DNA of 64,000 bases from Sphingobacteriia bacterium (lineage in GTDB: Bacteria > Bacteroidota > Bacteroidia > Bacteroidales > TTA-H9), in NCBI GenBank assembly GCA_021286705.1, contig JAJTBW010000001.1, positions 9,325 to 73,324 on the forward strand, given 5' to 3'. Of this stretch, positions 21,280 through 64,000 are shown in pieces (the stretch's first letter is position 1; every line of letters begins with the position of its first letter). Below the pieces are notes generated by a model. That model worked only from the letters and a program-made list of their open reading frames with translations, had not been told where the DNA came from and did no database searches. The translations under genes were made by a program, and so were the position numbers.

Positions 21280-21282
21280 CAC

Positions 21283-22608: not shown

Positions 22609-22615
22609 TACAAAT

Positions 22616-39061: not shown

Positions 39062-39093
39062 TAGGTAGTTTTAAAAAAGTAACTATTGGGTTT

Positions 39094-40256: not shown

Positions 40257-40553
40257 ATGATAAACTCTGAGAAACCCAGTTTTTATAGTCATGGATCATA
40301 TGGTGCTACTCTCTTTGACCCCCGGTGGAGAGAGAAACGTCAACGGATTCTTCAACGTGATAAAAATAAGTGTGTGATATGTAATGCAATTGAGAATTTG
40401 CATGTTCATCATCGACAATACCATTTCTCTAAATCATTGAATCGGTTTAAGAACCCATGGGAGTATTCTGATTCTCTATTAATAACGCTTTGTGAATCTT
40501 GCCATGGGAGAGGACATAATAAGTATACAGTACCTACAAAATATATTAAATAA
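40257..40553 (+). CDS. Small HNH endonuclease-like protein (98 aa)
   Basis: CVIC...LHVHHRQYH...LITLCESCHGRGH forms a Cys4 + HNH-type motif. Confidence 0.65.
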   Translation: MINSEKPSFYSHGSYGATLFDPRWREKRQRILQRDKNKCVICNAIENLHVHHRQYHFSKSLNRFKNPWEYSDSLLITLCESCHGRGHNKYTVPTKYIK

Positions 40554-40561
40554 CACTAACA

Positions 40562-41140: not shown

Positions 41141-41141
41141 C

Positions 41142-43156: not shown

Positions 43157-43159
43157 ACT

Positions 43160-44626: not shown

Positions 44627-44631
44627 CAATT

Positions 44632-45243
44632 ATGAAAGATATTACTTATAGCATAAAGTTTTATTCACAATGGCATTGCGGCTCGGGCGAATCGCAAGGA
44701 GCCGATTTAGATGCGCTCGTGATTAAAGATAGACAAGGGTTGCCTTATGTGCCCGGAAAAACCGTTAAAGGGTTGGTTAGAGACTCTTTTTTGGAACTTG
44801 ATATAATTGGTTACTTCGACCACAAGGGAAAGGAAATTGAGATCTTTGGTTGTGGTTATGACTATAAACAGAAACCTAAAACTGACGATGGTAAAAAGGA
44901 GCAGGGAATAATCAACCAATCTAGGCTTTATTTTAGTAATGCTGTATTAAAAAGTGTTGTGAAAGATGAGATTGAAAAAGCATCACTCATCCCATTTTTA
45001 TTTAATAAAGTGACCAGAACCTCAATTGACGAAAAAGGAGTGGCAAATGAAATGTCATTACGCTCCATGGAGGTTACTGTACCAGTGGCCCTAACTGGTA
45101 AAATATTAAATGTGGAAGATCAGTATGTAGATAGTATTATAGATGCTATGAAGTTTATTAAACGATTAGGTAGTGGCCGGAATCGTGGACTTGGTAGATG
45201 TTCATTTGAGGTGTTGAATATATCAGAAAGGAGGACTATATGA
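44632..45243 (+). CDS. cas7: Cas7-family RAMP (Csm3/Cmr4-like)
   Basis: WHCGSGESQGADLDALVIKDRQGLPYVPGKTVKGLVRD is followed by the C-terminal G-rich loop RLGSGRNRGLGRCSF. The start is taken at MKDITY, just after the cas10 stop. Confidence 0.75.
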   Translation: MKDITYSIKFYSQWHCGSGESQGADLDALVIKDRQGLPYVPGKTVKGLVRDSFLELDIIGYFDHKGKEIEIFGCGYDYKQKPKTDDGKKEQGIINQSRLYFSNAVLKSVVKDEIEKASLIPFLFNKVTRTSIDEKGVANEMSLRSMEVTVPVALTGKILNVEDQYVDSIIDAMKFIKRLGSGRNRGLGRCSFEVLNISERRTI

Positions 45244-48159: not shown

Positions 48160-48565
48160 GCAACATAATACGTTAGAAACGTTACCAAACAAAGAGTATC
48201 ATGGTTATTTATGGTTTGCCGACTGTGAATTTCCTGAGGTGATTGATGGTTTTCTATCGGGAAAACTCATGAGTAGAGATAATACATTTATTGTAGAAGG
48301 AAATCTGATGTCAAAGGATAATTTAACTTCTGTATCCATTAAACAGGTAGGATCTACGCAGTTTATAATGGAATTCAATCATAAGGATATTTCTGAAGAT
48401 AGAGCTTTGCAATTTAATGATTTAACCTATATTCCTCATAAATTGCCTGGTTTTAAAGAGATTGTTTTTAGACAGGTTTGGATTGCTGAGAGTGATGAAA
48501 ATTGTTGTAATTGGCCTACTTACAGACCAAAGTATCAGTATTTTGTAGAACTTAAAAAAGATTAG
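48146..48565 (+). CDS. Small protein inside the effector operon (139 aa); occupies the position of cas11/csx19-type genes
   Basis: The ATG at 48146 overlaps the upstream stop by 14 nt. I recognise no motif, and the sequence does not look strongly helical. Confidence 0.4.
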   Translation: MIHYKQHNTLETLPNKEYHGYLWFADCEFPEVIDGFLSGKLMSRDNTFIVEGNLMSKDNLTSVSIKQVGSTQFIMEFNHKDISEDRALQFNDLTYIPHKLPGFKEIVFRQVWIAESDENCCNWPTYRPKYQYFVELKKD

Positions 48566-48567
48566 TC

Positions 48568-50883
48568 ATGGTTTTAATGAAAGCACCTTTTAATTTTGTC
48601 CCATTAAATCAACATGTCTACTATCCTGATTGGGCAGAACAAGTTTCTCAAGATATTCCTTTCAGCGATGGTTTGAGCGGCCAAATAGAGTTGACTATCG
48701 AGGCGGAGAGTCCTATCTATATTAGAAATGGTTTCTCGGTTAATGAGTTAAAATCTGAGAATAAATCTGGGGATTTTGTCTCTAATAGTTTTTGGAATTT
48801 TAATGGTCAGTATTTTATTCCTGGCTCAAGTCTCAAAGGAATGATTCGCAATATTTTTGAGATTATAAGCTTTAGTAAGATGCCAACTGATCCAAGAATG
48901 CGTTTTGCCAGAAGAGACATGTTAGCAAATAATAGGAGTAATATTTATCCTCTTAAGAATATTACGGAACAAAAGGAAATTCGCTGTGGGTGGTTGTCTA
49001 TGAATGATAATTCTTATGTAATTAAAGATTGCGGACATCCATATAGAATTAGTCATAAAGAGCTTGATAAAATTTTTGGTTCTGAGTTATTTGAGAATCA
49101 TTTTTCCAAAGTAAAAGGCAAGGATTTGTCAAAGCCTATAGACCGCTTAAATCCTAAGATGGCTAAATTTAAATATAAACTCATTGAAAAAAATGGATTG
49201 AGCAAATATTTGAAAGGCTCTTTTGTAAAAGATGAAGCCAATAGAAAAGCTACTTACGAGGATGGAAAAGGGAGTCGTGGTGAAATAGTATTTACTGGCC
49301 AGCCAGATAGATGGGATTTTCCTAGAAATAAAGATAGCAAAGGAAAATTTAACGAGTTTGTGATTTTTGAAGATGAGCTTGGTTCAGACTATAAGATTTC
49401 GAGAGAGGTCTTTAATCAATACAACTTCTTTATGGATGATTCTGAAGATTGGCTTTATTGTCTATCCAAGATAAAAGAGGGTAATAGGTATCCTGTTTTT
49501 TTTCGTTTCGAATCAGAAGAGTCAGAAGAGGCTAAGAAAGTTAAAGACTTTGGATTGGCATTTATGTATCGCCTTCCATATATAAAAGGGGTCTCACAGT
49601 TAGTCGATGAGTTTCAAGAGCCCAATGGAATTGATTTAGCTGAGGCTGTTTTTGGATTTACTGAACTTAAGAAAGTTAAACTAGAAAGGAATAAGAAGGT
49701 TGTTGAGAAAATAAATGGGTCCTTAAAATCAAGGGTTCATTTTGGGCATGCCTTTGCTGAGGCAAATTCTATTACTCTGGCGGATCAGATTACAGGATGT
49801 TTGGCGGGACCTAAAGCGTCTTATTATCCCATTTATATTAGGCAACGGGAGGTGGATCCGGATAAAGGAAAGTATTACCAGACTTATGATAATGGCGTGA
49901 TTAGTGGCTGGAAGCGATATCCCTTAAAGGAGAGTGTTCAACTATTACCTAAAATCGGAGATAAAATGGATACGACCTTCGTTCCTGTTGAAAAGGGGGC
50001 GAAGTTTTCGGGAAAGATTACTTTTCATAATTTACGTCCGATAGAATTGGGATGTTTGTTATCTGCAATAACTTTTCACAACAATCCAGAGTACCGTCAC
50101 TCTTTAGGGATGGCAAAACCTTATGGCTATGGAAAAGTAAAGATTGAATCCAAGTTGAAGGTTTTTGATGAGAATAGTCTAGATATTGATGGTTATCTGG
50201 TAGCCTTTGAGAAGAAAATGAATGAGTTCTTAGCAACTAAGAGGTTGGGTAAGTGGTTTTCAACAGAGCAGATTGAAGAGTTATTTGCGATGGCCGACCC
50301 CAAGCGGGTTAATAAGGAAAATTCTGATCAACTTAACTATCTTAACCTTGGTGGAGGCAATGCTGGAGCAAATGAATTTCTGAAGATTAAAAAGCAAAAC
50401 GATTTCCTACATCCTTTTACCTCTGTATTTAAAGGCGGGACTTCAAGAGTTAGTCCGTTGGATTCTTATTTAGCTCGTGAAAAAGCTAATCAGGAAAAAA
50501 TGGAAGAGGAGGCTCGGGAAGCTGAGAAGCGTATGATTGAGGAGCAAGAGATGCAACGTAAGCTTGCCGAACAAGATCGATTAGATAATAAAAAACAGGA
50601 ATACCTTGAACAAGGGCTGGCTCTTTTTCTTAATTCACCTTCGTTTAGCCGATTTTTGGATAAGTGTGATGACTATAAAAAGAAGTTACAGCTAGAGGTT
50701 ATTCCAGAAGATCAACATGGTATAATCATACAAGTCATTGAGTCTTTCAATAAAACCGACAAGGAATTTTTAAAAGAAACAAGAAAAGGTGGCTTCGAGA
50801 AAGGTCGATCTTGGCTTCGATTGCAAAAGCTAATAGGAGAGAAACCTGCTTATAAGATGTTTCAATTGATCTCCAATCCATAG
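48568..50883 (+). CDS. Large RAMP protein (Cas7/Csm5-like, TIGR03986-like) with insertions and a K/E-rich coiled-coil C-terminal extension
   Basis: The N-terminus is APFNFVPLN...LSGQIELTIEAESPIYIRNG...FIPGSSLKGMIRN, and the G-rich loop is SLGMAKPYGYGKVKI. The C-terminal ~170 aa begin EKANQEKMEEEAREAEKRMIEEQEMQRKLAEQDRL. Confidence 0.65.
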   Translation: MVLMKAPFNFVPLNQHVYYPDWAEQVSQDIPFSDGLSGQIELTIEAESPIYIRNGFSVNELKSENKSGDFVSNSFWNFNGQYFIPGSSLKGMIRNIFEIISFSKMPTDPRMRFARRDMLANNRSNIYPLKNITEQKEIRCGWLSMNDNSYVIKDCGHPYRISHKELDKIFGSELFENHFSKVKGKDLSKPIDRLNPKMAKFKYKLIEKNGLSKYLKGSFVKDEANRKATYEDGKGSRGEIVFTGQPDRWDFPRNKDSKGKFNEFVIFEDELGSDYKISREVFNQYNFFMDDSEDWLYCLSKIKEGNRYPVFFRFESEESEEAKKVKDFGLAFMYRLPYIKGVSQLVDEFQEPNGIDLAEAVFGFTELKKVKLERNKKVVEKINGSLKSRVHFGHAFAEANSITLADQITGCLAGPKASYYPIYIRQREVDPDKGKYYQTYDNGVISGWKRYPLKESVQLLPKIGDKMDTTFVPVEKGAKFSGKITFHNLRPIELGCLLSAITFHNNPEYRHSLGMAKPYGYGKVKIESKLKVFDENSLDIDGYLVAFEKKMNEFLATKRLGKWFSTEQIEELFAMADPKRVNKENSDQLNYLNLGGGNAGANEFLKIKKQNDFLHPFTSVFKGGTSRVSPLDSYLAREKANQEKMEEEAREAEKRMIEEQEMQRKLAEQDRLDNKKQEYLEQGLALFLNSPSFSRFLDKCDDYKKKLQLEVIPEDQHGIIIQVIESFNKTDKEFLKETRKGGFEKGRSWLRLQKLIGEKPAYKMFQLISNP

Positions 50884-50917
50884 GGTTCTTTTAAATGTTT
50901 TCTGTCTGTTCGTTATA

Positions 50918-50963
50918 TGATCAGCATCTATAGAAAACTTCAGTTTTCTATAGATGCTGATCA
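50918..50963 (+). terminator. Perfect 21-bp-stem hairpin (loop TTCA) followed by a T-rich tract; terminator or attenuator between effector genes and CARF genes
   Basis: TGATCAGCATCTATAGAAAAC (50918-50938), TTCA, GTTTTCTATAGATGCTGATCA (50943-50963), then AAGCTTTATGTTTTTCTTTT. Confidence 0.6.
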
Positions 50964-50993
50964 AAGCTTTATGTTTTTCTTTTAGTTGATTTT

Positions 50994-52094
50994 ATGAAGG
51001 ATAAATCTCTCATTCGAAATGTTGTGATGCTTTTGGTCTCAGATCAACCAGTGTCAAATCTATTGTTTTGTAGAAATCTTGACTTGGAAATTGATGAAGT
51101 CGTGCTTTTTACGACCACAAAGATGGAGCGAAGTGGAGTTACAGATAATCTAATAAACGTACTTAACTTAACCTGTGAAATAAAGAGAATAGTTATATCT
51201 AATACAGATTATCTGGATGCCTATTCTTTATTAAGTGAGATTAAAAGTGATGGCCAGAGGCTTCTTGTGAATTTAACTGGAGGTAATAAGATTATGGCTA
51301 TGGCTGTTTATGATGCTTTTAGAGATCATGGTGGGTGTCGTTTTTATTATAGTCCGGTGGGTGGTGATTTATTCACATGTTTCAATGACCCAGATGCGTC
51401 ATTTTCTATTAGAAGGAATCTAAATGTATCTGAGTATTTGAACTCATACGGCATTGGTTTTAACCATTCTGAGAATTGTATCGCTAACTTTAAGGAGGCG
51501 GAAATGATCATGCGGTTACACCAAAAATATAAATTTAATAGAAGAAGAGTGCTGAATTATTTGGAGTCCAATAAAAGTGATTATGTCGAGTTCAAGAAGT
51601 ACTATGAAGGGGGCTGGTTTGAGGAATATTTGTATTATTCTATAAAAAAGCACTTGAATTTAGGCGATGATGAGATCTATTTAGATGTTGAACTGATAGC
51701 TGATCAAGAGACTGGTAGAGTAGTTAATGAGTTAGATGTAGCATTTGTATATAAGAGTGATCTGTATATTATAGAAGCTAAAGCGAATGTTACATCAAGA
51801 GGCGTATATAATATTAACCCACTTGAAAGCAGTCGTCCAAAGGTTAGTGTGGCCGACGACAAGCCGTTAGGTCAATACTTGTATAAGCTTGCTGCTGTTA
51901 ATAAGTTACTTGGTATACGTACTCAATGTGTATTAGCTACCTTAACAGATCTTCGTTCTGGTGGTGAGGACTTTAACAGAACACTTCAAGACAGAATGAA
52001 AATTCTTGATATTCATCATTTAATTGATAGATATGAATTTATTAACGATGAAAATTTTAGTAAACGAATAAATTATTTAGTAAAAAACTTTTAG
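50994..52094 (+). CDS. CARF + PD-(D/E)xK nuclease, Card1/Can2-like (DUF1887-type), copy 1
   Basis: The N-terminal Rossmann-like CARF is VMLLVSDQPVSNLL...VNLTGGNKIMAMAV. The C-terminal nuclease motif is ELDVAFVYKSDLYIIEAKAN. Confidence 0.7.
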   Translation: MKDKSLIRNVVMLLVSDQPVSNLLFCRNLDLEIDEVVLFTTTKMERSGVTDNLINVLNLTCEIKRIVISNTDYLDAYSLLSEIKSDGQRLLVNLTGGNKIMAMAVYDAFRDHGGCRFYYSPVGGDLFTCFNDPDASFSIRRNLNVSEYLNSYGIGFNHSENCIANFKEAEMIMRLHQKYKFNRRRVLNYLESNKSDYVEFKKYYEGGWFEEYLYYSIKKHLNLGDDEIYLDVELIADQETGRVVNELDVAFVYKSDLYIIEAKANVTSRGVYNINPLESSRPKVSVADDKPLGQYLYKLAAVNKLLGIRTQCVLATLTDLRSGGEDFNRTLQDRMKILDIHHLIDRYEFINDENFSKRINYLVKNF

Positions 52095-52096
52095 TT

Positions 52097-53302
52097 ATGA
52101 AAAAACTTTTGGTTAATTTAATTAGCGAGCAGACCATTCCAGTTTTGCTTTCTATAAATTCATTTCCCGAGGCGAAGCATCATCTGTTTATTACAACTCG
52201 AAAAATGGAGGATGCTGAGACAGGACGGCGAAGTTTATGGTTAAAAAAGGCAGCTAATTTGGATCCTGTTAATGTTGTGGTGACAGAGGTTTTGGCTGAT
52301 GATTATAATGATATTATGGCTAAGCTCGGATCTGAGCAGATGGAGGATTATTATAAGGAGTTTGATGAGATTATTGTTAATATTACAGGTGGAAATAAGC
52401 TGATGTCTATCGCTGTGAATGAATTTTTTAAGGGAAAAACAGAGAATATCTACTATTTGCCAATTCATAATGAAACATACGTTATTCCTAATAACCCATT
52501 GTATAAGAAGACAGTTAACTCATTGCTGAGTATCGAGACCTATTTAGGTGCCTGTGGTTTGCATAAGACTGATAAACGTGTTTCCTTTAAGCAACCACTT
52601 AACTCTCCTCGGGCATTTACATTTGAGGAGTTGGAGCGACTATTAGGTGAGTTTTTGGTAAATGAGGAGCTAAGAGCCAAGAGTGAGCGGTTAAGATTAC
52701 TGTTTAGAGCAGATGATTCTGTATATCGATTTAAAAAGGACAAATTGGATTATTCTGTTTTGCCGGAAGCAGATGAGATAGATGAGATATTAACTAGTTT
52801 TGGGTTCTCACCTGATGAAATGATTGGGAAGAAGACGGTGGATTTTATCACGGGTGGTTGGTATGAAGAATATGTATACTATTTAGTTTGCAGTATGTTT
52901 GAGAAGGAGGGATTAGTTCCTGTGGGTTATGACTTAGAAGATTTTGTGAAAATTGGAGTGCAATTATCACCTAAAGCTGGTGATGAATTTAAGGCTAAGT
53001 ATTTTACTTCTAATGACCTTGACGTTATATTCATTCTTAATTCGAAGCTATATGTTATCGAATGTAAAAGTGGCGGAATGGATAAGACGTATGACTATAA
53101 TAGAACTGTATATATGCAAAGTGCTCTGAGGAAATATTTTGGACTGAGTGTTACTTCAGTTTTATGTACATTGTCTTCTGTAAGCGAGGAAAATATGGAG
53201 AAAGCGAAGGTTTTTGGAATAAAAGTATTAGACAAAAGTTATTTTGCTAATTCTATCAATGAAAAAAGCATAAAAGATTTTTCACAATCAAAGAGAGATT
53301 AA
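52097..53302 (+). CDS. CARF + PD-(D/E)xK nuclease, Card1/Can2-like, copy 2
   Basis: The CARF is LVNLISEQTIPVLL...VNITGGNKLMSIAV and the nuclease motif is DLDVIFILNSKLYVIECKSG. It starts 2 nt after copy 1. Confidence 0.7.
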   Translation: MKKLLVNLISEQTIPVLLSINSFPEAKHHLFITTRKMEDAETGRRSLWLKKAANLDPVNVVVTEVLADDYNDIMAKLGSEQMEDYYKEFDEIIVNITGGNKLMSIAVNEFFKGKTENIYYLPIHNETYVIPNNPLYKKTVNSLLSIETYLGACGLHKTDKRVSFKQPLNSPRAFTFEELERLLGEFLVNEELRAKSERLRLLFRADDSVYRFKKDKLDYSVLPEADEIDEILTSFGFSPDEMIGKKTVDFITGGWYEEYVYYLVCSMFEKEGLVPVGYDLEDFVKIGVQLSPKAGDEFKAKYFTSNDLDVIFILNSKLYVIECKSGGMDKTYDYNRTVYMQSALRKYFGLSVTSVLCTLSSVSEENMEKAKVFGIKVLDKSYFANSINEKSIKDFSQSKRD

Positions 53303-53682
53303 TGCTAATCAATATATCAAATCATTCATGTACTAGTTGGGGATTAGATCAGTTAAATACTGCCAAGAGCAAGTGGAGTCGTGTGGTTGATTTATTAAGT
53401 CCGATGATTCCACCCGAAGCAGGTGTTAATGATCTAATCCCTGTCGTAAATGATTATGTCAAAAAGGTTCAAGAAATTGCAAAACTGGAGAAAGAGGGCA
53501 CTGTATTTATTCATGTTATGGGCGAATTAACATTTACATTTATGGTGATAGCAAAGCTTCAGCGGGAAGGATTTCAATGTGTAGCTAGCACGACCAAGCG
53601 GGATGTTATCGAAGAGAATGGAATTAAACTTAGTGAGTTTAAATTTGTTCAGTTTCGAGTATTTCCAAAATTCGATGAATAG
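53302..53682 (+). CDS. Small CRISPR-linked protein of unknown function (126 aa)
   Basis: It overlaps the upstream stop by 1 nt (TAATG). The sequence is LINISNHSCTSWGLDQL...FIHVMGELTFTF. It might be Csx20-like, but I cannot verify that. Confidence 0.45.
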   Translation: MLINISNHSCTSWGLDQLNTAKSKWSRVVDLLSPMIPPEAGVNDLIPVVNDYVKKVQEIAKLEKEGTVFIHVMGELTFTFMVIAKLQREGFQCVASTTKRDVIEENGIKLSEFKFVQFRVFPKFDE

Positions 53683-54025: not shown

Positions 54026-55009
54026 ATGGAGCTAATATTAAATAGTTTTGGTACAACTTTATCGAGGGAGAATGACCAATTTGCAGTGTCACATGCTGAT
54101 GGTAAACAATTGATTCATCCTTCAGAAATCAAATGCATTTCTATAAGTAAAGGGGCAAGAATAACTTCTGATGCCGCACTGCTTGCTATCGATAATGAGA
54201 TAGATGTACTGTTTATTGATAAAAAGGGGATGCCAAAAGGGCGCATCTGGAGTTCAAAATATGGTTCAATCAGTACAATAAGAAGAAAGCAGTTAGATTT
54301 TACCTTCAATGAGATGGCTGTAGAATGGATAAAGGATGTTATACGCCAGAAGTTAGAGAATCAGATTGCTTTGCTTTATAGTAGTTGCCCTGTTGATCGA
54401 TTAAATGATGTCTCTTTCAATAGATTATTGAATCGGATAAAAGACTATTCGGTTAAGATTGAAGGTCTTAATGGTGGGATTGTTCAGGACGTAGCTTCCT
54501 CGTTAAGGGGCTGGGAAGGTGCTGCAGGAAAGATATATTTTGAGACGTTATCAACGTTTTTGCCAGAAGAGTATAAGTTTCAAGGAAGGAGTCAAAATCC
54601 TGCTGTTGATTTGTTCAATGCATTATTAAATTATGGTTATGGGATATTGTATGGCAAGATAGAGGGTGCAATGATCAGAGCAGGGATTGATCCTTATGTA
54701 GGTGTTTTTCATCGTGACGATTATAACAGGCCAGTGTTGGTCTTTGATGTGATAGAGTTATATAGAGTCTGGGTGGATTATGTTGTTTTTAATTTATGTA
54801 AACAGAAGGCTATCGGGGAGGAGTGCTATAGTAGGCGCCCTGATGGTTCCGTTTGGTTGGAGATTCTTGGAAGAAGAATTCTTATTCAATCGATCAATGA
54901 CTATTTTGATGAAGTTATACTCATTAAAGGACTTGAAAGAACGCGACTTACGCATTTGGAATTGTATTGTCAGAATCTAGCTCAGTATTTTTTAAAAGGG
55001 AAGTGGTAA
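54026..55009 (+). CDS. cas1: Cas1 integrase
   Basis: 327 aa with EGAAGKIYF, NALLNYGYGILY and GIDPYVGVFHRDDYNRPVLVFDVIELYR, the conserved E/H/D catalytic region. Confidence 0.9.
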   Translation: MELILNSFGTTLSRENDQFAVSHADGKQLIHPSEIKCISISKGARITSDAALLAIDNEIDVLFIDKKGMPKGRIWSSKYGSISTIRRKQLDFTFNEMAVEWIKDVIRQKLENQIALLYSSCPVDRLNDVSFNRLLNRIKDYSVKIEGLNGGIVQDVASSLRGWEGAAGKIYFETLSTFLPEEYKFQGRSQNPAVDLFNALLNYGYGILYGKIEGAMIRAGIDPYVGVFHRDDYNRPVLVFDVIELYRVWVDYVVFNLCKQKAIGEECYSRRPDGSVWLEILGRRILIQSINDYFDEVILIKGLERTRLTHLELYCQNLAQYFLKGKW

Positions 55010-55010
55010 T

Positions 55011-56018
55011 ATGTTAATGCGTGGAAAAAATATAACGGCCAGTGGTGACCCGTTACAACCGATTGAATTAACTCACTTTTTTAGATCTATTGTCAATCCT
55101 ACAGAGGAGCTTATACAACGAATAGATCAATTACGCATAGTGAGTACCTTGGATCAGGTGAGGTATCGTCAGCTAAAGACAACCTTGCCCTATGTGGTTT
55201 GTGGCAGTTATCATCCTGCTATCAGGAAGACCTCCAGTTTTGCATCCATTGAGTGTTTTATCCTCGATTTTGACCATCTAAACAGTAAAAATATTGAAAT
55301 AAAAGATTTCAAGGCGAAGATGCGAGAGGATTCCAGAATCTTGATGCTTTTTGAATCGCCGAGTGGAGATGGATTAAAAGTGTTGTTTAAATTAGATGAA
55401 AAATGTTATGATCCTGGTGTATATAGGCTGTTTTATAAACTATTCGCAAAGAGCTTTTCTATAGAATATGGTTTAGATCAAGTAGTAGATGAGCGGACAA
55501 GTGATGTTACTAGAGCTTGTTTTTATAGTTATGATAGAGATGCATGGTTAAATGAGGCAGTCACTCCAATAAAAATATCGAATTACCTTAATTTGGAAGA
55601 GATAAGTCAGGTAGATGCTTTATTGAAAGAAATTAGAAACGATGTCAAGGAGGAAAAGAAGGAGGAACGTGAGGCAAAAGTAAGTGCATCAGCTGATACA
55701 TTAAAGGAAATAAGATCCATGCTCCTACCTAAGGCTAGGCCGATTGAGAAGGATGTGTTTGTTCCAGAAGAACTTAAGGGGCTTGAAGAAATGATTAAGG
55801 TTAGATTGGAGAGTACCCCGATTAAGGTCGTGTCTAGTGAATCTATCCAATATGGCAAGAAGGTGAAATTTGAAATGGAGACCGTAAAGGCTGAGGTAAA
55901 TGTATTTTATGGCAAGAAGGGTTTCTCGGTTGTTTCAACAACTAAGACAGGGACAAATCCGGAGTTTGCACAGTTATGTAAGGAATTGCTTGAAGATCTG
56001 TTGATACATCGGAGTTGA
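55011..56018 (+). CDS. Primase-polymerase (AEP superfamily, VirE-N/BT4734-like) encoded between cas1 and cas2
   Basis: The DxD motif is FILDFDHL, the SxxGxG motif is FESPSGDGLKVLFKL, and a further motif is DVTRACFYSYDRD. It starts 1 nt after the cas1 stop and ends just before cas2. Confidence 0.65.
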   Translation: MLMRGKNITASGDPLQPIELTHFFRSIVNPTEELIQRIDQLRIVSTLDQVRYRQLKTTLPYVVCGSYHPAIRKTSSFASIECFILDFDHLNSKNIEIKDFKAKMREDSRILMLFESPSGDGLKVLFKLDEKCYDPGVYRLFYKLFAKSFSIEYGLDQVVDERTSDVTRACFYSYDRDAWLNEAVTPIKISNYLNLEEISQVDALLKEIRNDVKEEKKEEREAKVSASADTLKEIRSMLLPKARPIEKDVFVPEELKGLEEMIKVRLESTPIKVVSSESIQYGKKVKFEMETVKAEVNVFYGKKGFSVVSTTKTGTNPEFAQLCKELLEDLLIHRS

Positions 56019-56031
56019 TTTGTGTTTTTTT

Positions 56032-56496: not shown

Positions 56497-56619
56497 TACC
56501 TTTGTTATTAGGTGGAATTAGTATACTTTTGCAATCCCAAAAAAATGAGGTACAGAGTGATTTTTTTTAGATCTTTTTGTTCTTATGGTATTGAAAGTAA
56601 AGTAGATGCAATGGGTGCT
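56497..56619 (+). promoter_or_regulatory. CRISPR leader (AT-rich) with a Bacteroidota-type -7 box candidate
   Basis: This is the 123 nt between cas2 and the first repeat. TACTTTTG at 56524-56531 fits the TAnnTTTG consensus. A- and T-runs are also present. Confidence 0.5.
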
Positions 56620-59600
56620 CTGAGGAACCCTCTTCCAGAATAATAAGGATTAAGACAAATTACTTACTTGATAATTTGGAAACTCAATAATTGCTGAGGA
56701 ACCCTCTTCCAGAATAATAAGGATTAAGACTATTATCACGCTGTTCGAGTTGGAATATTACTTCTCTACTGAGGAACCCTCTTCCAGAATAATAAGGATT
56801 AAGACTCCGCACTAGTCGTTCTATCCATATCATACTTAATCCTGAGGAACCCTCTTCCAGAATAATAAGGATTAAGACTTCCTTGTTACATCTGGACTCT
56901 CGAAGAGACATAAACTGAGGAACCCTCTTCCAGAATAATAAGGATTAAGACTCTATGTTCCTTGTTACATCTGGACTCTCGAAGAGACATCTGAGGAACC
57001 CTCTTCCAGAATAATAAGGATTAAGACCTTCTAGCAAGTTTTCTGCCGCTGTATCAGCGACAGCTGAGGAACCCTCTTCCAGAATAATAAGGATTAAGAC
57101 ACTAAATAATTGTTCTAAAGATTGTACTAAGTTAGCTGAGGAACCCTCTTCCAGAATAATAAGGATTAAGACTGAACGAGAGAGCTAGGTTTGGTTCCGA
57201 AATCTTTAACTGAGGAACCCTCTTCCAGAATAATAAGGATTAAGACTGAATAACACTTTTGCTTCAGTTGGAGAAGATTCTGAGGAACCCTCTTCCAGAA
57301 TAATAAGGATTAAGACTTGTTATGAATCTCAACTCTTGGGCACAGTTGTGAGCTGAGGAACCCTCTTCCAGAATAATAAGGATTAAGACACCCTCTTTAT
57401 TTTGCGCTTCAGTATTATTTATTGCCTGAGGAACCCTCTTCCAGAATAATAAGGATTAAGACGGAGCTTTAATGTCAGTACCTTCAGCGAGGCTTAAAGC
57501 TGAGGAACCCTCTTCCAGAATAATAAGGATTAAGACCCCTTCTTTTGCTTTAAATTCAGCCAAAGAAACAACACCTGAGGAACCCTCTTCCAGAATAATA
57601 AGGATTAAGACACCTTCTTTATTTTTTCTTTGGTGATTATAACTATATCTGAGGAACCCTCTTCCAGAATAATAAGGATTAAGACTCTGCAAGAGGTATC
57701 TTATAATCCTATATGTGGATCTGAGGAACCCTCTTCCAGAATAATAAGGATTAAGACGTCTGAACCCCTTCTTTTGCTTTAAATTCAGCCAAACTGAGGA
57801 ACCCTCTTCCAGAATAATAAGGATTAAGACAGTTTATTACCTTCAATTATTTCTTCTTTAGTCATCTGAGGAACCCTCTTCCAGAATAATAAGGATTAAG
57901 ACCCTTAACACTACCAGCCTCTACGAAGTAGAGGAAAATGCTGAGGAACCCTCTTCCAGAATAATAAGGATTAAGACTTCATTTACGCTGAATGTTTGTT
58001 GAAGTTATTTAAAGCTGAGGAACCCTCTTCCAGAATAATAAGGATTAAGACAACGAATAAAAGCTCTTCCGTGAATCTTGGCATTCTGAGGAACCCTCTT
58101 CCAGAATAATAAGGATTAAGACAAGTAAAGATAGATGCTAATACTAGCATCCTTTTTAGTTCTGAGGAACCCTCTTCCAGAATAATAAGGATTAAGACCA
58201 CTTTTATAGTGCCTGCTTCAACGAAATATAAGAAACTGAGGAACCCTCTTCCAGAATAATAAGGATTAAGACTCTTAGTTGGGAATTTCCCAACAGGAAT
58301 AACTTTCCTGAGGAACCCTCTTCCAGAATAATAAGGATTAAGACAGTTACAGTTGTTGTTGTAGTGTACACAACAAAAGACTGAGGAACCCTCTTCCAGA
58401 ATAATAAGGATTAAGACTCCTGACAATCTGGCTTACAATAAAGAAAACAAACCTGAGGAACCCTCTTCCAGAATAATAAGGATTAAGACGAGGAAAATAC
58501 TAACTTTAGGATCTTTCTTGGTAGCTGAGGAACCCTCTTCCAGAATAATAAGGATTAAGACCCAGTTGCAACACTGATGTTCCAATAATCTCCTGATTTC
58601 TGAGGAACCCTCTTCCAGAATAATAAGGATTAAGACACTAACCAAAGGCAATCGTCTTTAAATTCATTAAGATTCTGAGGAACCCTCTTCCAGAATAATA
58701 AGGATTAAGACCAACAGGAATAACTTGTACTTTCATAACAATTCTACTGAGGAACCCTCTTCCAGAATAATAAGGATTAAGACCCTTTTTCTTATTCTGC
58801 ATTCAGGAGTTCCACTTCAAGTCTGAGGAACCCTCTTCCAGAATAATAAGGATTAAGACTTGATATACTTGCTTAGTATAATTACAATATTGAAACCTGA
58901 GGAACCCTCTTCCAGAATAATAAGGATTAAGACCTGTTTGTATCTTGCGATAGCGTTGCATTTTTTAAATCTGAGGAACCCTCTTCCAGAATAATAAGGA
59001 TTAAGACTTCGACGTAGCCGGATGGCATCGCAATAGTTGGATCGCCTGAGGAACCCTCTTCCAGAATAATAAGGATTAAGACATGATAGCAACGTATAGG
59101 CCGGCTGCGTTTCCGGGGTCTGAGGAACCCTCTTCCAGAATAATAAGGATTAAGACAGCACCTGTTGCAACGGAGATATTCCAATAATCCCCCTGAGGAA
59201 CCCTCTTCCAGAATAATAAGGATTAAGACCCTGTTGAATAACTGCTTTACATAATCTTTGTCTAACCTGAGGAACCCTCTTCCAGAATAATAAGGATTAA
59301 GACAGCTTACTACTTTTTGTAAGCTTTCCTTTTCTTCATCTGAGGAACCCTCTTCCAGAATAATAAGGATTAAGACGGAACTAGCACGCACTTTCACAGT
59401 GCCAGCCTCTACTGAGGAACCCTCTTCCAGAATAATAAGGATTAAGACACACTCATGTACACTCTCAATTAACTAATTTACAAGCACTGAGGAACCCTCT
59501 TCCAGAATAATAAGGATTAAGACGAGGAGCCGAAGCCCCTCCGGGTTATTTTAAATCTCTGAGGAACCCTCTTCCAGAATAATAAGGATTAAGACTCTTC

Positions 59601-62600
59601 ACATGCTGAATTAATAGCTGCATCCTCAGTGCTGAGGAACCCTCTTCCAGAATAATAAGGATTAAGACGACCTTTGGGAGAGGTAGATCGTGTAAACTTT
59701 TTACACTGAGGAACCCTCTTCCAGAATAATAAGGATTAAGACCAATGGCGAATGTGTTCTCTGAATCGTCCTTTACTCCTGAGGAACCCTCTTCCAGAAT
59801 AATAAGGATTAAGACATAACAAGGGCGATAATTAGTTTAATCATTTTGTCCTGAGGAACCCTCTTCCAGAATAATAAGGATTAAGACATGCTATTATATC
59901 GTCTCCACAACGTTTAGTAGGATCGCTGAGGAACCCTCTTCCAGAATAATAAGGATTAAGACGTAGCAACTTAAGTGCTTTGTCTGGATATTTCATAAGG
60001 CTGAGGAACCCTCTTCCAGAATAATAAGGATTAAGACTAAGTTTTCTATATACATATGCCAATCCGTCTTTCTCTGAGGAACCCTCTTCCAGAATAATAA
60101 GGATTAAGACTCAAAGATGAAGTTGGTATGCATATCTACATACCATCTCCTGAGGAACCCTCTTCCAGAATAATAAGGATTAAGACAGGAAGAGGCACGT
60201 ACTTTAACACTGCCAGCCTCTCTGAGGAACCCTCTTCCAGAATAATAAGGATTAAGACATTACGTAAGATTTTGATACTACTGGATAATTTCTGAGGAAC
60301 CCTCTTCCAGAATAATAAGGATTAAGACTGTATATGAAGTACTGTTTTCATAATCTTCACATTTCACTGAGGAACCCTCTTCCAGAATAATAAGGATTAA
60401 GACTATGTATAGAATTTTGGCTGCAACCCAATTGGAGATCTGAGGAACCCTCTTCCAGAATAATAAGGATTAAGACTGTAGGTAGTTTCTTCTTTATAAG
60501 CTTTATAATAACTGAGGAACCCTCTTCCAGAATAATAAGGATTAAGACTAAAGGTAAATACTAATTTTAGGATCTTTTTTTAGTACTGAGGAACCCTCTT
60601 CCAGAATAATAAGGATTAAGACTGTTATTGTTATTTTGGATTGTTGCATTTTACACCTAACTGAGGAACCCTCTTCCAGAATAATAAGGATTAAGACTCA
60701 ATTACACCATCAGTTAAAATTAATTCCAATAGCTGAGGAACCCTCTTCCAGAATAATAAGGATTAAGACAGTTCTCTTACTGATTATGGCTGAATCAGAC
60801 CCAGGCTGAGGAACCCTCTTCCAGAATAATAAGGATTAAGACTTCTTCAGAAAACTCTTTAGGAGAATATTCTTGTTTACTGAGGAACCCTCTTCCAGAA
60901 TAATAAGGATTAAGACAACCTCAGAAATGTATAATTGTTTGGATTGTTGTGCTGAGGAACCCTCTTCCAGAATAATAAGGATTAAGACCATTTCACTCCT
61001 CGATAAAGTACTAAACATTCCAGCTGAGGAACCCTCTTCCAGAATAATAAGGATTAAGACAAACCACTTGGATTAGGATCAGTAAAATTGGTTTCTACTG
61101 AGGAACCCTCTTCCAGAATAATAAGGATTAAGACCCTCGTAGACTTCTTCATAACCCTCTTCTAATAAGACTGAGGAACCCTCTTCCAGAATAATAAGGA
61201 TTAAGACATTGGGGTATTTACGCTTTTCGTAATTCAACTTAGCGCTGAGGAACCCTCTTCCAGAATAATAAGGATTAAGACCTGCACCGATAAGGCGCCT
61301 GCCTGACAGATTGACGACACTGAGGAACCCTCTTCCAGAATAATAAGGATTAAGACACCGCTTGTTTGGCGAACTTGTAAGCCTTGGTTCCTGAGGAACC
61401 CTCTTCCAGAATAATAAGGATTAAGACCTGTTGTTTTCGTACTGATCCAGAAGCACTTCTAAAAGCTGAGGAACCCTCTTCCAGAATAATAAGGATTAAG
61501 ACTCATCATATTCCCTTGTAAGGGATCCCTTTAATATGCTGAGGAACCCTCTTCCAGAATAATAAGGATTAAGACCATTCCTTGCCGTATTTTGCCACGA
61601 ATTTTTGACCGCTGAGGAACCCTCTTCCAGAATAATAAGGATTAAGACTTACCTATTATTTCACATACTTCTTTATCCAATGTACTGAGGAACCCTCTTC
61701 CAGAATAATAAGGATTAAGACATTATTTACAATGAATCTTTGAATAGCTTGGCGGAAAACTGAGGAACCCTCTTCCAGAATAATAAGGATTAAGACTTTT
61801 TTGGATTGTTATTTTGCATTTTACACCTAAAACTGAGGAACCCTCTTCCAGAATAATAAGGATTAAGACCTACTATTCTCATAGTCTTCACAAAGGACTT
61901 CAAAAGACTGAGGAACCCTCTTCCAGAATAATAAGGATTAAGACCGCCACTAATTTAGTTAATTGTTCTTTTTCCTTTTCTGAGGAACCCTCTTCCAGAA
62001 TAATAAGGATTAAGACCGCTAACAGATATGCGTTTCATTATCTGTGATCCGGCTGAGGAACCCTCTTCCAGAATAATAAGGATTAAGACTCATAACTCAT
62101 TGATTAACCGTTTAAGAAACTCAACTGAGGAACCCTCTTCCAGAATAATAAGGATTAAGACCATCTTTTACATTGTGTTTATAATAGGAGTTTATGGACT
62201 GAGGAACCCTCTTCCAGAATAATAAGGATTAAGACTCTCGTTGTACTGGTATTTACCAAAGTTTGTTAAGATACTGAGGAACCCTCTTCCAGAATAATAA
62301 GGATTAAGACGCCCAGTTTTCAGTTTATTGAGATGAATATCAAGGTCTGAGGAACCCTCTTCCAGAATAATAAGGATTAAGACCTCCAAACAGATATTTA
62401 TGTATAGTTTTTGTATTTCTGAGGAACCCTCTTCCAGAATAATAAGGATTAAGACAATTAACCCCTTTTTTTATTCAGCAGGATTCAGCAACCTGAGGAA
62501 CCCTCTTCCAGAATAATAAGGATTAAGACGGGTTGAAATCTGCGAGGTAATTGTAGGTAGTATAACTGAGGAACCCTCTTCCAGAATAATAAGGATTAAG

Positions 62601-64000
62601 ACTATTAGTCTATTTTCTCTTACACAATCTGCTACATTGCTGAGGAACCCTCTTCCAGAATAATAAGGATTAAGACGTTACTTGTGTCATGTTTGTGTGT
62701 GTTAAGGAGAGCCTGAGGAACCCTCTTCCAGAATAATAAGGATTAAGACTTTGACCTACGTAAACGTAAAACTTTTTGTCCATCCTGAGGAACCCTCTTC
62801 CAGAATAATAAGGATTAAGACTCGTCGGCTATTCTTGTCATATCTGTGTTTGTTTTAAAGAACTGAGGAACCCTCTTCCAGAATAATAAGGATTAAGACA
62901 TTTAACAGTTCGGCTACTAGCCTTCTTAGCGCTCTGAGGAACCCTCTTCCAGAATAATAAGGATTAAGACATCAGCCATTTTAGAATAGCTAATCTCTTT
63001 ACTAGCTGAGGAACCCTCTTCCAGAATAATAAGGATTAAGACCCGGACAAGATACCTTTTCGGTATCCTGCACCTAAACTGAGGAACCCTCTTCCAGAAT
63101 AATAAGGATTAAGACTTCACATAATGCTCTTCAAAAGAAAGAGCAAAGTTTGCTGAGGAACCCTCTTCCAGAATAATAAGGATTAAGACTAACTATATTT
63201 GTTAGTCCAGAATTAGTAGCTGCTATACTGAGGAACCCTCTTCCAGAATAATAAGGATTAAGACTTCACCAGTTAGGATACCTTTAACATAACCAGTACC
63301 AACTGAGGAACCCTCTTCCAGAATAATAAGGATTAAGACCAATAACTAAGGTCTCATCCTGAATATCCAATTGTGGGCTGAGGAACCCTCTTCCAGAATA
63401 ATAAGGATTAAGACAGGCGGCTTCGAGTTCAAAGCGCACTTTCACCTTTGCCTGAGGAACCCTCTTCCAGAATAATAAGGATTAAGACTGGAAGCTGCCG
63501 TAGACATAGTTAGCAGGTACTGCGCTGAGGAACCCTCTTCCAGAATAATAAGGATTAAGACTCAAGATACATAGATTTTATTCTTTCAGTCGATCTACTG
63601 AGGAACCCTCTTCCAGAATAATAAGGATTAAGACTTTATGTGCAACAGAAATGATGCACATTTATGTAGATCTGAGGAACCCTCTTCCAGAATAATAAGG
63701 ATTAAGACCCATTGATTAGTATGTCAATCAACGCTGCCTGATGCCACTGAGGAACCCTCTTCCAGAATAATAAGGATTAAGACGAAGTAGAGGAAGATGT
63801 TAATACTAGCATCTTTTTTACTGAGGAACCCTCTTCCAGAATAATAAGGATTAAGACAATTCTCTATTGTAAGAAGAAGCTCTGACTTTTACTCTGAGGA
63901 ACCCTCTTCCAGAATAATAAGGATTAAGACCGCTGTATCTGCGACAGACTCGTGTGCGTCTATCGCGACTGAGGAACCCTCTTCCAGAATAATAAGGATT
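56620..64000 (+). CRISPR. CRISPR array: 100 complete + 1 truncated copies of the 37-bp repeat CTGAGGAACCCTCTTCCAGAATAATAAGGATTAAGAC; 100 spacers of 33-41 nt; continues beyond the window
   Basis: Every repeat boundary was located by hand, from the first at 56620-56656 to the last complete one at 63894-63930. All copies appear identical. The repeat 3' end ATTAAGAC resembles the AUUxxxAC 8-nt crRNA tag of type III systems, giving + strand orientation. Confidence 0.97.

What the first reader, a model, noticed from the sequence alone, without database searches (positions are those of the whole stretch)
57903..63820. Eight of 100 spacers converge on one ~75-nt segment of a single protein family, in several sequence variants
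Seen: the eight spacers are at 57903-57940, 58123-58161, 58199-58235, 58490-58524, 59377-59411, 60187-60221, 60549-60585 and 63784-63820. They overlap or are homologous. Their reverse complements translate to IFLYFVEAGSVK, TKKDASISIYLY, FLYFVEAGTIKV, TKKDPKVSIFL, EAGTVKVRASS, EAGSVKVRASS, TKKDPKISIYL and KKDASINIFLYF. Together they tile a consensus TKKD[AP][SK][IV][NS]I[FY]LYFVEAG[TS][VI]KVRASS. The spacer at 63415-63451 (AKVKVRFELEAA) may be a distant ninth member. Differences among variants are mostly synonymous or conservative. Inference: the host has repeatedly sampled the same conserved gene region from a diversifying group of related invaders, probably phages. This may be a highly expressed structural gene or an acquisition hot spot.
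Basis: partly seen in the sequence, partly recalled or inferred. Interest (0 to 1): 0.75.

Follow-up and report, generated by a model that had tools for sequence, protein, structure and literature searches.

The report
CRISPR spacer hot spot on one gene
Eleven of the 100 spacers in this type III CRISPR array, plus at least 7 in an unrelated array from a sister strain, come from one ~150-nt hairpin-rich coding segment of an unidentified invader gene family, which matches the spacer-capture hot spots recently described for type III systems.

Summary

- **More members.** Three further window spacers belong: 58273-58307, 58712-58746 and 63858-63893. That makes 11 of 100. The spacer at 63415-63451 does not belong.
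- **Tiling.** Together they cover nt -10 to +125 around a conserved Met codon.
- **Coding.** Mismatches between overlapping spacers fall 13/19/52% on codon positions 1/2/3, so the segment is coding and under purifying selection. At least 5 sequence variants were sampled.
- **Independent array.** A sister strain's array (ENA ERZ724078, 133 spacers, none shared) has 7 spacers on the same segment. Another 11 lie on a possibly homologous segment.
- **Orientation.** All give crRNA antisense to the mRNA.
- **Host system.** It is a type III locus: Cas6b, a short Cas10, RAMPs and two Card1-like nucleases. Adaptation is by Cas1, a CAPP_B primase-polymerase and Cas2.
- **Hairpins.** Spacers are enriched in hairpins, the hot spot most of all.

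The best reading is a capture hot spot followed by selection for orientation, as published for Streptococcus thermophilus type III-A.

The invader was not found in any database, and the identity of the target gene is unresolved.

The parts
56620..64000 (+). CRISPR array: 100 full 37-nt repeats plus one truncated by the window end, with 100 spacers. It is transcribed on the + strand; the leader-proximal (newest) end is at 56620.
   Evidence: The repeat ends in ATTAAGAC (a 5'-handle-like 8-mer). cas2 and an AT-rich leader lie directly upstream. L019 shows a degenerate terminal repeat at the far end in the same orientation.
56497..56619 (+). Leader between the cas2 stop codon and the first repeat.
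57903..57940 (-). Hot-spot spacer 18; sense strand reads IFLYFVEAGSVK; nt 60-97 of the target. It contains a 7-bp hairpin, CCTCTAC/GTAGAGG.
58123..58161 (-). Hot-spot spacer 21; TKKDASISIYLY; nt 36-74. It contains the hairpin GGATGCTA/TAGCATCT.
58199..58235 (-). Hot-spot spacer 22; FLYFVEAGTIKV; nt 63-99.
58273..58307 (-). It has an 8-bp perfect palindrome, GTTGGGAA-A-TTCCCAAC, and a 2-codon deletion relative to spacer 29.
58490..58524 (-). Hot-spot spacer 26; TKKDPKVSIFL; nt 35-69.
58712..58746 (-). It marks the upstream edge of the tiled segment.
59377..59411 (-). Hot-spot spacer 38; EAGTVKVRASS; nt 77-111.
60187..60221 (-). Hot-spot spacer 49; EAGSVKVRASS; nt 78-112.
60549..60585 (-).
63784..63820 (-). 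Hot-spot spacer 98; KKDASINIFLYF; nt 39-75. One of the oldest spacers in the window.
63858..63893 (-).
63415..63451 (-). Spacer 93: NOT a member. It belongs to another cross-array target, AAKV[KR]VRFELEAALGDFED.
54026..55009 (+). cas1.
   Evidence: TIGR00287, 225 bits against a cut-off of 71.7.
55011..56018 (+). CRISPR-associated primase-polymerase, class B (CAPP_B), lying between cas1 and cas2.
   Evidence: NF040562, 375 bits against a cut-off of 200; PF08800; PMC8211822.
56020..56496 (+). cas2.
   Evidence: TIGR01573, 54 bits against a cut-off of 24.5.
42488..53682 (+). Type III effector and signalling genes: cas6b 42488-43156; short cas10 43160-44626; RAMPs 44599-45243, 45240-46697 and 46690-48159; TIGR04423 protein 48077-48565; TIGR03986 RAMP 48568-50883; two Card1/Can2-like CARF nucleases 50994-52094 and 52097-53302; Csx20/MJ1673-like 53302-53682.
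56879..56990 (-). Spacers 4 and 5: a 33-nt identical overlap shifted by 6 nt, in adjacent array positions. An example of redundant re-sampling of one sequence.
57537..57793 (-). Spacers 13 and 16: a 28-nt identical overlap.

Best explanation
The array is the memory bank of a type III CRISPR-Cas system. Its effector side has Cas6b, a short Cas10, several Cas7/RAMP proteins, and cyclic-oligoadenylate signalling to two Card1-like nucleases. Its adaptation module is Cas1, CAPP_B primase-polymerase and Cas2.

Eleven of its 100 spacers derive from one ~135-nt stretch of a conserved protein-coding gene of an unidentified invader family; with a sister strain's array the tiled stretch reaches ~150 nt. 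The stretch runs from 10 nt upstream of a conserved Met codon to about codon 48: MKVQVIPVGKFPTKKD[AP][SK][IV]SI[FY]LYFVEAG[TS][VI]KVRASSYNRELVDGDLI. Each spacer comes from a different sequence variant.

I think this is a capture hot spot. The type III Cas1-Cas2 machinery, here with CAPP, preferentially takes prespacers from hairpin-forming, probably actively transcribed DNA. This segment is unusually hairpin-prone, so each new variant of the invader is sampled at the same place. Selection then keeps only insertions whose crRNA is complementary to the mRNA, which type III interference needs.

Shown here: the tiling, the coding nature, the number of variants, recurrence in an independent array, the uniform orientation, and the hairpin enrichment.

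Inferred: that the bias arises at capture; that transcription or a nearby promoter is involved; that the Met is the gene start; and that the invader is a virus.
For: - **Tiling.** 11 window spacers cover nt -10 to +125.
- **Coding.** Codon-position mismatch rates are 13/19/52%.
- **Independent array.** ERZ724078 (L012/L020) has 133 spacers and shares none with the window. It has 7 spacers on the same segment: sp12, 14, 104, 111, 128, 130 and 133. A further 11 tile nt 4-137 of a second peptide in the same ungapped register, with 11/40 identities (permutation p about 0.01) and a shared NRELV motif.
- **Capture bias rather than pure selection.** There are 22 near-identical overlapping pairs within single arrays, often in neighbouring positions, which add no new specificity.
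- **Hairpins in spacers overall.** Mean fold z is -0.81 +/- 0.11, against -0.06 +/- 0.06 for random 35-38-nt host or viral fragments. Perfect stems of >=6 bp occur in 25% against 6.6%.
- **Hairpins in the hot spot.** Hot-spot spacers give z -1.86 (first family) and -3.34 (second family). The assembled 124 nt of the second family folds into four tandem hairpins, z -9.4 as DNA.
- **Compensatory change.** A hairpin over the PVGxFPT codons is kept between variants by compensatory synonymous changes, T-A to G-C.
- **Structure argues against selection for accessibility.** Structured targets should be worse, not better, for crRNA access.
- **Orientation.** All 18 spacers on this segment (11 window, 7 in the other array) are antisense to the mRNA; for the first 14 placed, p = 6e-5. 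44 of 47 related pairs share orientation. Spacers are pyrimidine-rich on the crRNA strand, 68 against 26.
- **Precedent.** S. thermophilus type III-A preferentially acquires from partially palindromic DNA, ssDNA origins, promoters and tRNA/rRNA genes (PMC8860593). It also acquires from a narrow window just downstream of an early phage promoter: 20% of resistant mutants (BIMs) targeted one 210-bp gene, and natural arrays show the same pattern (PMC13575424).
Against: - The protospacer locus was never found, so promoter proximity, transcription timing and even the virus/plasmid nature of the source are unknown.
- Only 10 nt upstream of the Met are known, and they contain no in-frame stop, so the segment could be internal to a larger gene.
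- In the window array alone, hairpin enrichment outside the hot spot is modest: mean z -0.19 (not significant), stems >=6 bp in 17% against 6.6% (p = 0.003).
- In S. thermophilus, integration is orientation-independent. Here even redundant spacers all share orientation, which a capture-plus-selection model explains only if redundant spacers were also selected.
- The apparent sharp edges of the segment may be partly an ascertainment effect, because unlinked neighbouring spacers cannot be recognised without a reference.
Confidence: 0.6

Rival explanations
1. Pure selection. Spacers are captured uniformly, and only crRNAs against this segment protect, for example because it is the earliest or most abundant transcript. 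Only those lineages survive.
For: Uniform antisense orientation. Type III needs target transcription. The Thermus and Streptococcus literature shows early-gene enrichment among survivors (PMC7515739, PMC13575424).
Against: A ~150-nt window is far narrower than a transcript. Redundant near-identical spacers add no specificity. Hairpin-rich targets should be poorer crRNA targets, yet they are enriched. In S. thermophilus the bias was shown to arise at capture, independent of interference (PMC13575424).
Confidence: 0.12
2. Interference-driven ('primed-like') acquisition. Old spacers such as 98 and 99 partially match new variants, and the resulting type III response produces DNA fragments near the target that are captured. 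New spacers therefore pile up around old ones.
For: The oldest window spacers (98, 99) are already in the hot spot. There is a burst of 6 members within spacers 18-29 (p about 0.01). Type III tolerates mismatches (general knowledge).
Against: Only a Palm2 domain is detected in the 488-aa Cas10, and no HD nuclease was seen. The Card1-type effectors are not target-localised. Two independent arrays share the same segment in two diverged families, which argues for a property of the target rather than of array history. The type III-A hot spot is interference-independent (PMC13575424).
Confidence: 0.1
3. Copy-number or paralogue effect. The segment is repeated many times in one invader genome, or lies on a small high-copy or ssDNA replicon (for example a rolling-circle element whose single-strand origin overlaps the gene). 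The excess and the 'variants' would then come from one or a few genomes.
For: Several diverged families (the main one, the second one and perhaps a third) occur together in one array. The four-hairpin architecture resembles single-strand origins, which are the strongest type III-A hot spots (PMC8860593). CAPP primes on ssDNA (PMC8211822).
Against: The segment is coding and under purifying selection. Even a 5-kb source gives p about 3e-3 for the clustering. No such element was found in plasmid or viral collections.
Confidence: 0.12
4. RNA-derived spacers. The segment is an abundant structured RNA, and spacers were copied from RNA as in RT-Cas1 systems.
For: Strict antisense orientation; a structured target (z -9.2 as RNA); a tRNA-like spacer in the sister array; absence from DNA databases.
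Against: No reverse-transcriptase domain is present in Cas1 or its neighbours. Both CAPP classes tested used RNA templates poorly and could not prime on RNA (PMC8211822).
Confidence: 0.04

Closest known systems
Type III-A spacer-acquisition hot spots in Streptococcus thermophilus (Zhang et al. 2021, PMC8860593; Noble-Molnar et al. 2026, PMC13575424)
   Same: A very narrow region supplies 10-20% of spacers. Hairpin-forming or partially palindromic DNA is preferred. Natural arrays show the same pile-ups. Retained spacers are antisense to mRNA. A small ORF (or its 5' part) is the target.
   Different: This is a different phylum (Bacteroidota MAG) and a different effector set (short Cas10, TIGR03986 RAMP, Card1-like nucleases). 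There is an extra CAPP_B primase-polymerase between cas1 and cas2. Promoter dependence is not testable here. Orientation is uniform even for redundant spacers, whereas type III-A integration is orientation-independent.
CAPP-containing adaptation modules (Zabrady et al. 2021, PMC8211822)
   Same: The cas1-CAPP_B-cas2 gene order in a Bacteroidota type III locus. NF040562 is matched well above its cut-off.
   Different: That work is biochemical and says nothing about which sequences are sampled in vivo. This array gives a natural spacer repertoire for such a module.
RT-Cas1 type III systems (RNA spacer acquisition)
   Same: Bias towards expressed or structured sequences, and antisense crRNAs in natural arrays.
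   Different: There is no RT domain here, and CAPP prefers DNA templates.
Free-DNA-end / Chi-limited hot spots of type I and II adaptation
   Same: Strongly non-uniform sampling of invader DNA.
   Different: Those hot spots span kilobases and start at DNA ends. This one is ~150 nt inside (or at the start of) a coding region. Possible end-derived spacers were seen only in the sister array (L012 sp27/37/60).

Membership tests
CRISPR array with type III cas locus | Identical direct repeats separated by unique spacers of similar length, next to cas1/cas2 | tested here: met
   100 identical 37-nt repeats and spacers of 33-41 nt. cas1, cas2 and the leader lie directly upstream.
CRISPR array with type III cas locus | Cas10 signature protein plus Cas7-type RAMPs | tested here: met
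   PF22335 Cas10/Cmr2 Palm2, 51 bits against a gathering score of 27. TIGR02577 matches at 45 bits, below its cut-off. TIGR03986 RAMP scores 272 bits against 161, and there are several RAMP hits.
Subtype III-D | Subtype-specific gene set (csx10, csx19, all1473-type genes; Cas10 often without HD) | not tested
   Only generic type III models were hit. No HD domain was detected in the 488-aa Cas10, but no subtype classifier was run.
CAPP_B adaptation module | AEP primase-polymerase of class B encoded with cas1/cas2 in a Bacteroidota type III operon | tested here: met
   NF040562, 375 bits against a cut-off of 200. The gene sits between cas1 and cas2. The host is annotated as a Sphingobacteriia MAG. 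PMC8211822.
Type III adaptation hot spot (S. thermophilus type) | A narrow region supplies a large share of spacers | tested here: met
   11/100 spacers in the window array. 18/130 unique spacers (7 + 11) in the ERZ724078 array.
Type III adaptation hot spot (S. thermophilus type) | Protospacers are partially palindromic or hairpin-forming | tested here: met
   Hot-spot z is -1.86 and -3.34. The assembled 124 nt give z -9.4. Stems >=6 bp occur in 25% of spacers against 6.6% of controls.
Type III adaptation hot spot (S. thermophilus type) | Lies just downstream of an active (early) promoter and depends on transcription | not testable with these tools
   Only 10 nt upstream of the Met codon are known (spacer 29), and the invader genome was not found.
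Type III adaptation hot spot (S. thermophilus type) | The bias arises at capture, independent of interference | tested here: inconclusive
   Only indirect support: 22 redundant near-identical overlaps and enrichment of structured targets.
Type III adaptation hot spot (S. thermophilus type) | Integration in both orientations | tested here: inconclusive
   44/47 related pairs and 22/22 near-identical pairs share orientation. In a natural array this cannot be separated from selection.
RT-Cas1 RNA spacer acquisition | Reverse-transcriptase domain fused to or next to Cas1 | tested here: not met
   Cas1 (327 aa) hits only Cas1 models, and the neighbouring gene is an AEP Prim-Pol.
Target = RNA polymerase largest subunit (Rpb1/beta') | Collinear match to the Rpb1 domain 2 motifs (..R.L.DGD..FNRQPSLH..NADFDGD) | tested here: inconclusive
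   L012_sp14 (SYDRELIDGDLI) matches 11/12 of an Rpb1-like ORF on IMG/VR contigs L024/L025, directly before FNRQPSL. The search pattern carried only about 37 bits, so about one chance hit was expected. No spacer encodes NRQPSLH or NADFDGD, and no other spacer matches those contigs. Pfam and PDB searches with the peptide alone give no RNAP hit.

The most novel reading that the evidence does not exclude
The CAPP_B primase-polymerase gives this type III adaptation module an intrinsically strand-specific way of capturing spacers. It would act on hairpin-forming single-stranded DNA exposed at one locus of the invader, such as the displaced strand of a promoter-proximal R-loop or a single-strand replication origin embedded in a gene. 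It would fill that DNA in to make prespacers whose orientation is already fixed. This would explain the extreme focus on a four-hairpin segment. It would also explain why even redundant spacers are always in the functional orientation, which is not the case for type III-A.
Probability: 0.12. Interest if true: 0.8.

Novelty: new member of a known kind. Interest (0 to 1): 0.5.

Why it matters
Type III systems capture DNA but must recognise RNA, and how they end up with useful spacers is an open question. Transcription- and hairpin-linked capture hot spots have been shown experimentally only for Streptococcus thermophilus type III-A.

These two natural arrays come from an uncultivated Sphingobacteriia lineage. 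They show the same signature: a ~150-nt pile-up, hairpin-rich spacers and antisense orientation. The system is distant, has different effectors and carries an added primase-polymerase.

That suggests the bias is a general property of type III adaptation. It also offers a concrete test substrate for the unknown in vivo role of CAPP: the 48-codon, four-hairpin segment.

Finally, the finding flags an abundant but unsampled invader family in the habitats of these bacteria.

Tried and rejected
**Target searches, all negative**
- tblastn of the 29- and 41-aa consensus against GenBank phages and PLSDB plasmids.
- blastn of the whole array against phages.
- Seven back-translated or exact patterns against IMG/VR.
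- One pattern each against GTDB genomes and JGI metagenome contigs.
- Three protein-collection searches with consensus alignments; each returned 'no candidate shares three 5-residue words'.
- Pfam, PHROGs and PDB searches with the peptides.
- Self-targets in the window and in all fetched loci.

**Repeat searches for more arrays**
- Repeat search in metagenome contigs: one short contig only.
- Repeat search in GTDB genomes: none.

**Ideas rejected**
- The second family's hot spot is non-coding terminators. It is open in one frame across about 40 codons, its few substitutions are not decisive (position 1/2/3 = 5/3/7 by hand count), and it shares register and NRELV with the main family. I treat it as probably coding.
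- Spacer 93 is a member. It is not.
- A Bacteroidetes -7 promoter box in TAGAATTG upstream of the ATG. Eight bases with a mismatch in AT-rich DNA carry no weight.
- An open-frame count as a strand test. It was uninformative.

**Leads left unresolved**
- An RNAP Rpb1/beta'-like match.
- A weak OB-fold match, PDB 2K75, E 0.06.


Full report
**What is at the coordinates.** Window 56620-64000 is a CRISPR array. It has 100 identical copies of the 37-nt repeat CTGAGGAACCCTCTTCCAGAATAATAAGGATTAAGAC, a 101st copy cut by the window end, and 100 spacers of 33-41 nt.

Directly upstream on the same strand lies a type III locus:
- Cas6b, 42488-43156.
- A short Cas10, 43160-44626, in which only the Palm2 domain is detected.
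- Several RAMP/Cas7-like proteins, including a TIGR03986-family RAMP at 48568-50883.
- Two Card1/Can2-like CARF nucleases, 50994-53302.
- A Csx20/MJ1673-like protein.
- Cas1 (54026-55009), a class B CRISPR-associated primase-polymerase (CAPP_B, 55011-56018, NF040562 at 375 bits against a cut-off of 200) and Cas2 (56020-56496).

The proteins are annotated in NCBI as coming from a Sphingobacteriia MAG. Three things place crRNA transcription on the + strand: the position of the leader, the repeat's 3' end ATTAAGAC, and a degenerate terminal repeat at the far end of a related array.

**Check of the observation.** Their reverse complements translate as stated, except that spacer 54 gives LKKDPKISIYL rather than TKKD....

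Three more window spacers belong to the set:
- Spacer 99 (63858-63893), VKVRASSYNRE.
- Spacer 23 (58273-58307), KVIPVGKFPTK.
- Spacer 29 (58712-58746), TAGAATTGTT-ATG-AAA-GTA-CAA..., i.e. RIV-MKVQVIPV.

So 11 of 100 spacers tile nt -10 to +125 around a conserved Met codon. With spacers from a second array, the consensus is MKVQVIPVGKFPTKKD[AP][SK][IV]SI[FY]LYFVEAG[TS][VI]KVRASSYNRELVDGDLI.

The suggested ninth member, spacer 93, shares only VKVR. It belongs with L012_sp34 and L020_sp119 to a different target.

In 46 overlapping pairs, mismatches fall 13%, 19% and 52% on codon positions 1, 2 and 3. The antisense frame is neither open nor conserved. The segment is therefore coding and under purifying selection.

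No two overlapping spacers are identical in their overlap. Five mutually overlapping spacers all differ, so at least five variants were sampled.

Chance clustering is excluded: about 2e-11 for a 40-kb source and 3e-3 even for a 5-kb one. Six of the eleven sit within spacers 18-29 (p about 0.01).

**An independent replicate.** Cas1 proteins at least 90% identical to the window's occur on other contigs. One contig, ENA ERZ724078 (L012/L020), carries 133 spacers, none shared with the window.

- Seven of its spacers map to the same segment: sp12 PVGSFPTKKDPDK, sp104 FPTKKDPSKKIFL, sp111 SISIFLYFIVA, sp130 QSKKIYLYFIEA, sp128 ASSFNKELKNG, sp133 SCYNRELVDGD and sp14 SYDRELIDGDLI. They extend the segment to about nt +145.
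- Eleven more (sp64, 62, 58, 41, 39, 16, 59, 63, 28, 11, 29) tile nt 4-137 of a second peptide, NFQV[IV]GILDL[SN][ES]FKS[RK]IGAEKLQIFTSK[TS]GKKYATDHNRELVAS.
- That second peptide aligns to the first without gaps in the same register: 11/40 identities, permutation p about 0.01, local BLASTP E 0.016, and a shared NRELV motif. I treat it as a probable diverged homologue.

The two arrays also share several other targets, so they face related invaders.

**Orientation.**
- All hot-spot spacers are inserted so that the crRNA is antisense to the coding strand (for the first 14 placed, p = 6e-5).
- Of 47 DNA-level related spacer pairs, 44 share orientation. The three exceptions are one probable chance match (L001_sp3 with W_sp56, 15/16 nt) and two that involve a terminal-inverted-repeat-like sequence (L012 sp27/37 with sp60).
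- All 22 near-identical overlapping pairs within one array share orientation.
- In a tblastx all-against-all comparison, 49 pairs score at least 18.5 bits, while a single shuffled control reached 18.0 at most. 47 of the 49 share orientation. For diverged coding pairs the sense strand is almost always the reverse complement of the array strand.
- Spacers are pyrimidine-rich on the crRNA strand: 68 against 26 in the window and 78 against 27 in the other array.

This is what a transcript-sensing type III system needs.

**Hairpins.** Spacers in these arrays fold better than expected.

| Set | n | Mean fold z | Perfect stem >=6 bp | Perfect stem >=7 bp |
|---|---|---|---|---|
| All spacers | 240 | -0.81 +/- 0.11 | 25% | 12.5% |
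| Random 35-38-nt host or viral fragments (control) | 2 x 250 | -0.06 +/- 0.06 | about 6.6% | 1-2% |
| Hot-spot spacers, first family | 18 | -1.86 | 9 of 18 | 7 of 18 |
| Hot-spot spacers, second family | 11 | -3.34 | 9 of 11 | 8 of 11 |
| All spacers outside the hot spots | 211 | -0.59 | 20% | 15 of 211 |
| Window spacers outside the hot spot | 89 | -0.19 (n.s.) | 17% (p = 0.003) | 6 of 89 |

In the window array alone, the effect outside the hot spot is weak.

The 124 nt assembled for the second family fold into four consecutive stem-loops of roughly 6-13 bp. The z-score is -9.4 as DNA and -9.2 as RNA, and 0 of 200 shuffles fold as well.

In the first family, hairpins recur at similar positions in different variants but with different sequences. 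The one over the PVGxFPT codons is preserved between W_sp23 and L012_sp12 by a compensatory pair of synonymous changes, GTT to GTG and CCA to CCC. Not every variant has every hairpin.

**Explanation.** These features match published properties of type III-A adaptation in Streptococcus thermophilus.
- It preferentially captures partially palindromic DNA, single-strand origins, promoter regions and tRNA/rRNA genes (PMC8860593).
- It has a transcription-dependent hot spot within the first tens of bp downstream of an early phage promoter. One 210-bp gene accounts for 20% of resistant mutants (BIMs), and natural arrays show the same pile-ups (PMC13575424).

I therefore read the finding as a capture hot spot on a hairpin-prone, presumably transcribed segment. 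It is re-sampled each time a new variant of the invader is met, and selection then keeps the antisense orientation.

Two points argue against pure selection. Redundant spacers from the same variant add no specificity. Structured targets should be harder, not easier, for crRNA to reach.

A primed-like mechanism is less likely. No HD nuclease is detectable in Cas10, and two unrelated arrays converge on the same segment.

An RNA source is unlikely. There is no RT domain, and CAPPs copy RNA poorly (PMC8211822).

A multi-copy or small-replicon source cannot be excluded.

One discrepancy with type III-A remains. Integration there is orientation-independent, whereas here even redundant spacers share orientation. 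This could still be selection, but it leaves room for an orienting role of CAPP.

**The target.** I could not find it. The following were all negative:
- GenBank phages and PLSDB plasmids.
- Seven of the eight IMG/VR pattern scans (the eighth is described next).
- One pattern scan each of GTDB genomes and JGI metagenome contigs.
- Three searches of the 5.8-billion protein set.
- Pfam, PHROGs and PDB.
- Self-targeting in the window and in all fetched loci.

The last IMG/VR pattern, for Y[ND]REL[VI]DGD, hit two related viral contigs, L024 and L025.
- In these contigs SYDRELVDGDLI lies directly before FNRQPSL...NADFDGD in an RNA polymerase Rpb1/beta'-like ORF.
- That block is 11/12 identical to L012_sp14.
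- An alignment anchored on the L025 part extends into the hot-spot peptide against RPB1.
- However, the pattern carried only about 37 bits, so roughly one chance hit was expected.
- No spacer encodes the downstream RNAP motifs, and no other spacer matches those contigs.
- Without the L025 part, the only PDB hit is a weak one to a small uncharacterised archaeal protein, which from memory I take to be an OB fold (2K75, E 0.06).

Two questions therefore stay open: whether the Met is a gene start or an internal residue, and whether the gene encodes an RNAP subunit, an SSB-like protein or something else. The Met's G is conserved in two variants that differ by a 2-codon indel just after it.

**Verdict.** 'Phage' and 'structural gene' are untested.

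The phenomenon belongs to a kind already described for type III-A. What is new is its appearance in natural arrays of a distant, CAPP-containing Bacteroidota system, and the unknown four-hairpin target.

Noticed in passing
L012: spacers 27, 37 and 60 (locus positions about 14555, 15292, 16988): Read as reverse complements, spacers 27 and 37 both end in ...TTAATAGGGGCTATACACTA after unrelated sequence. Spacer 60, in the opposite orientation, ends at the near-identical ...AGGAGCTATACACT. This looks like spacers taken flush from terminal inverted repeats or DNA ends of a linear element.
   Followed up: partly
L012: spacers 31 and 35 (about 14849, 15143): The overlapping spacers assemble to ...ACCAGGATGGTCGTAGTGTGGGTTCGACTCCCACACC, which looks like the T-arm and 3' end of a tRNA. 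tRNA genes are known type III-A capture hot spots, and tRNA 3' ends are also attachment sites for integrative elements.
   Followed up: no
L020: spacers 121-126: Spacers 121-123 are repeated exactly as 124-126, which is a three-unit block duplication inside the array.
   Followed up: no
L001, L003, L006, L014, L016, L018 compared with the window and L012/L020: Strains with Cas1 at least 90% identical have arrays ranging from 1-5 spacers to more than 100, and the two long arrays share no spacer. In L003 and L006 the short array is followed by PIF1-like helicase and TOTE-domain genes.
   Followed up: partly
window 56879-56990, 57537-57793, 60623-61832: There are other overlapping spacer sets in the window: 4/5 (33 nt identical), 13/16 (28 nt identical) and 55/59/71. 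The last set covers an ATG and 11-13 nt upstream of it (AGGTGTAAA-ATG-CAA...) in three variants. It is a second, smaller pile-up at what looks like a gene start.
   Followed up: partly
window 58562-58599, 59157-59192, 63043-63078, 63265-63302: Spacers 27/35 (KSGDYWNISVATG[A]) and 88/91 (GAGYRKGILS / GTGYVKGILT) are diverged pairs that also have partners in the other array (L020 sp123 and sp121). From memory they loosely resemble RNAP beta' motifs, but a PDB search gave no support.
   Followed up: partly
window 43160-44626 and 50994-53302: Cas10 is only 488 aa and only its Palm2 domain is detected, with no HD. The locus carries two tandem Card1/Can2-like CARF nucleases, so defence probably relies on cyclic-oligoadenylate signalling.
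   Followed up: partly
window 14311-24196 and 37619-42119: The neighbourhood looks like a defence island. It has a dynamin-like GTPase (16128-18098) next to an Hsp70-like protein (18101-19303), a RecD-like helicase (37619-39061), a WYL-domain protein (39094-40107, minus strand), a small protein with a weak IscB/HNH-like hit (40257-40553) and a DUF4407 protein (41142-42119).
   Followed up: no
window 518-631, 3457-3676, 6487-6654: Non-CRISPR tandem repeats: 18/36-nt units at 518-631, 7/35-nt TTGAATC-type units at 3457-3676, and five copies of a 33-nt unit at 6487-6654.
   Followed up: no
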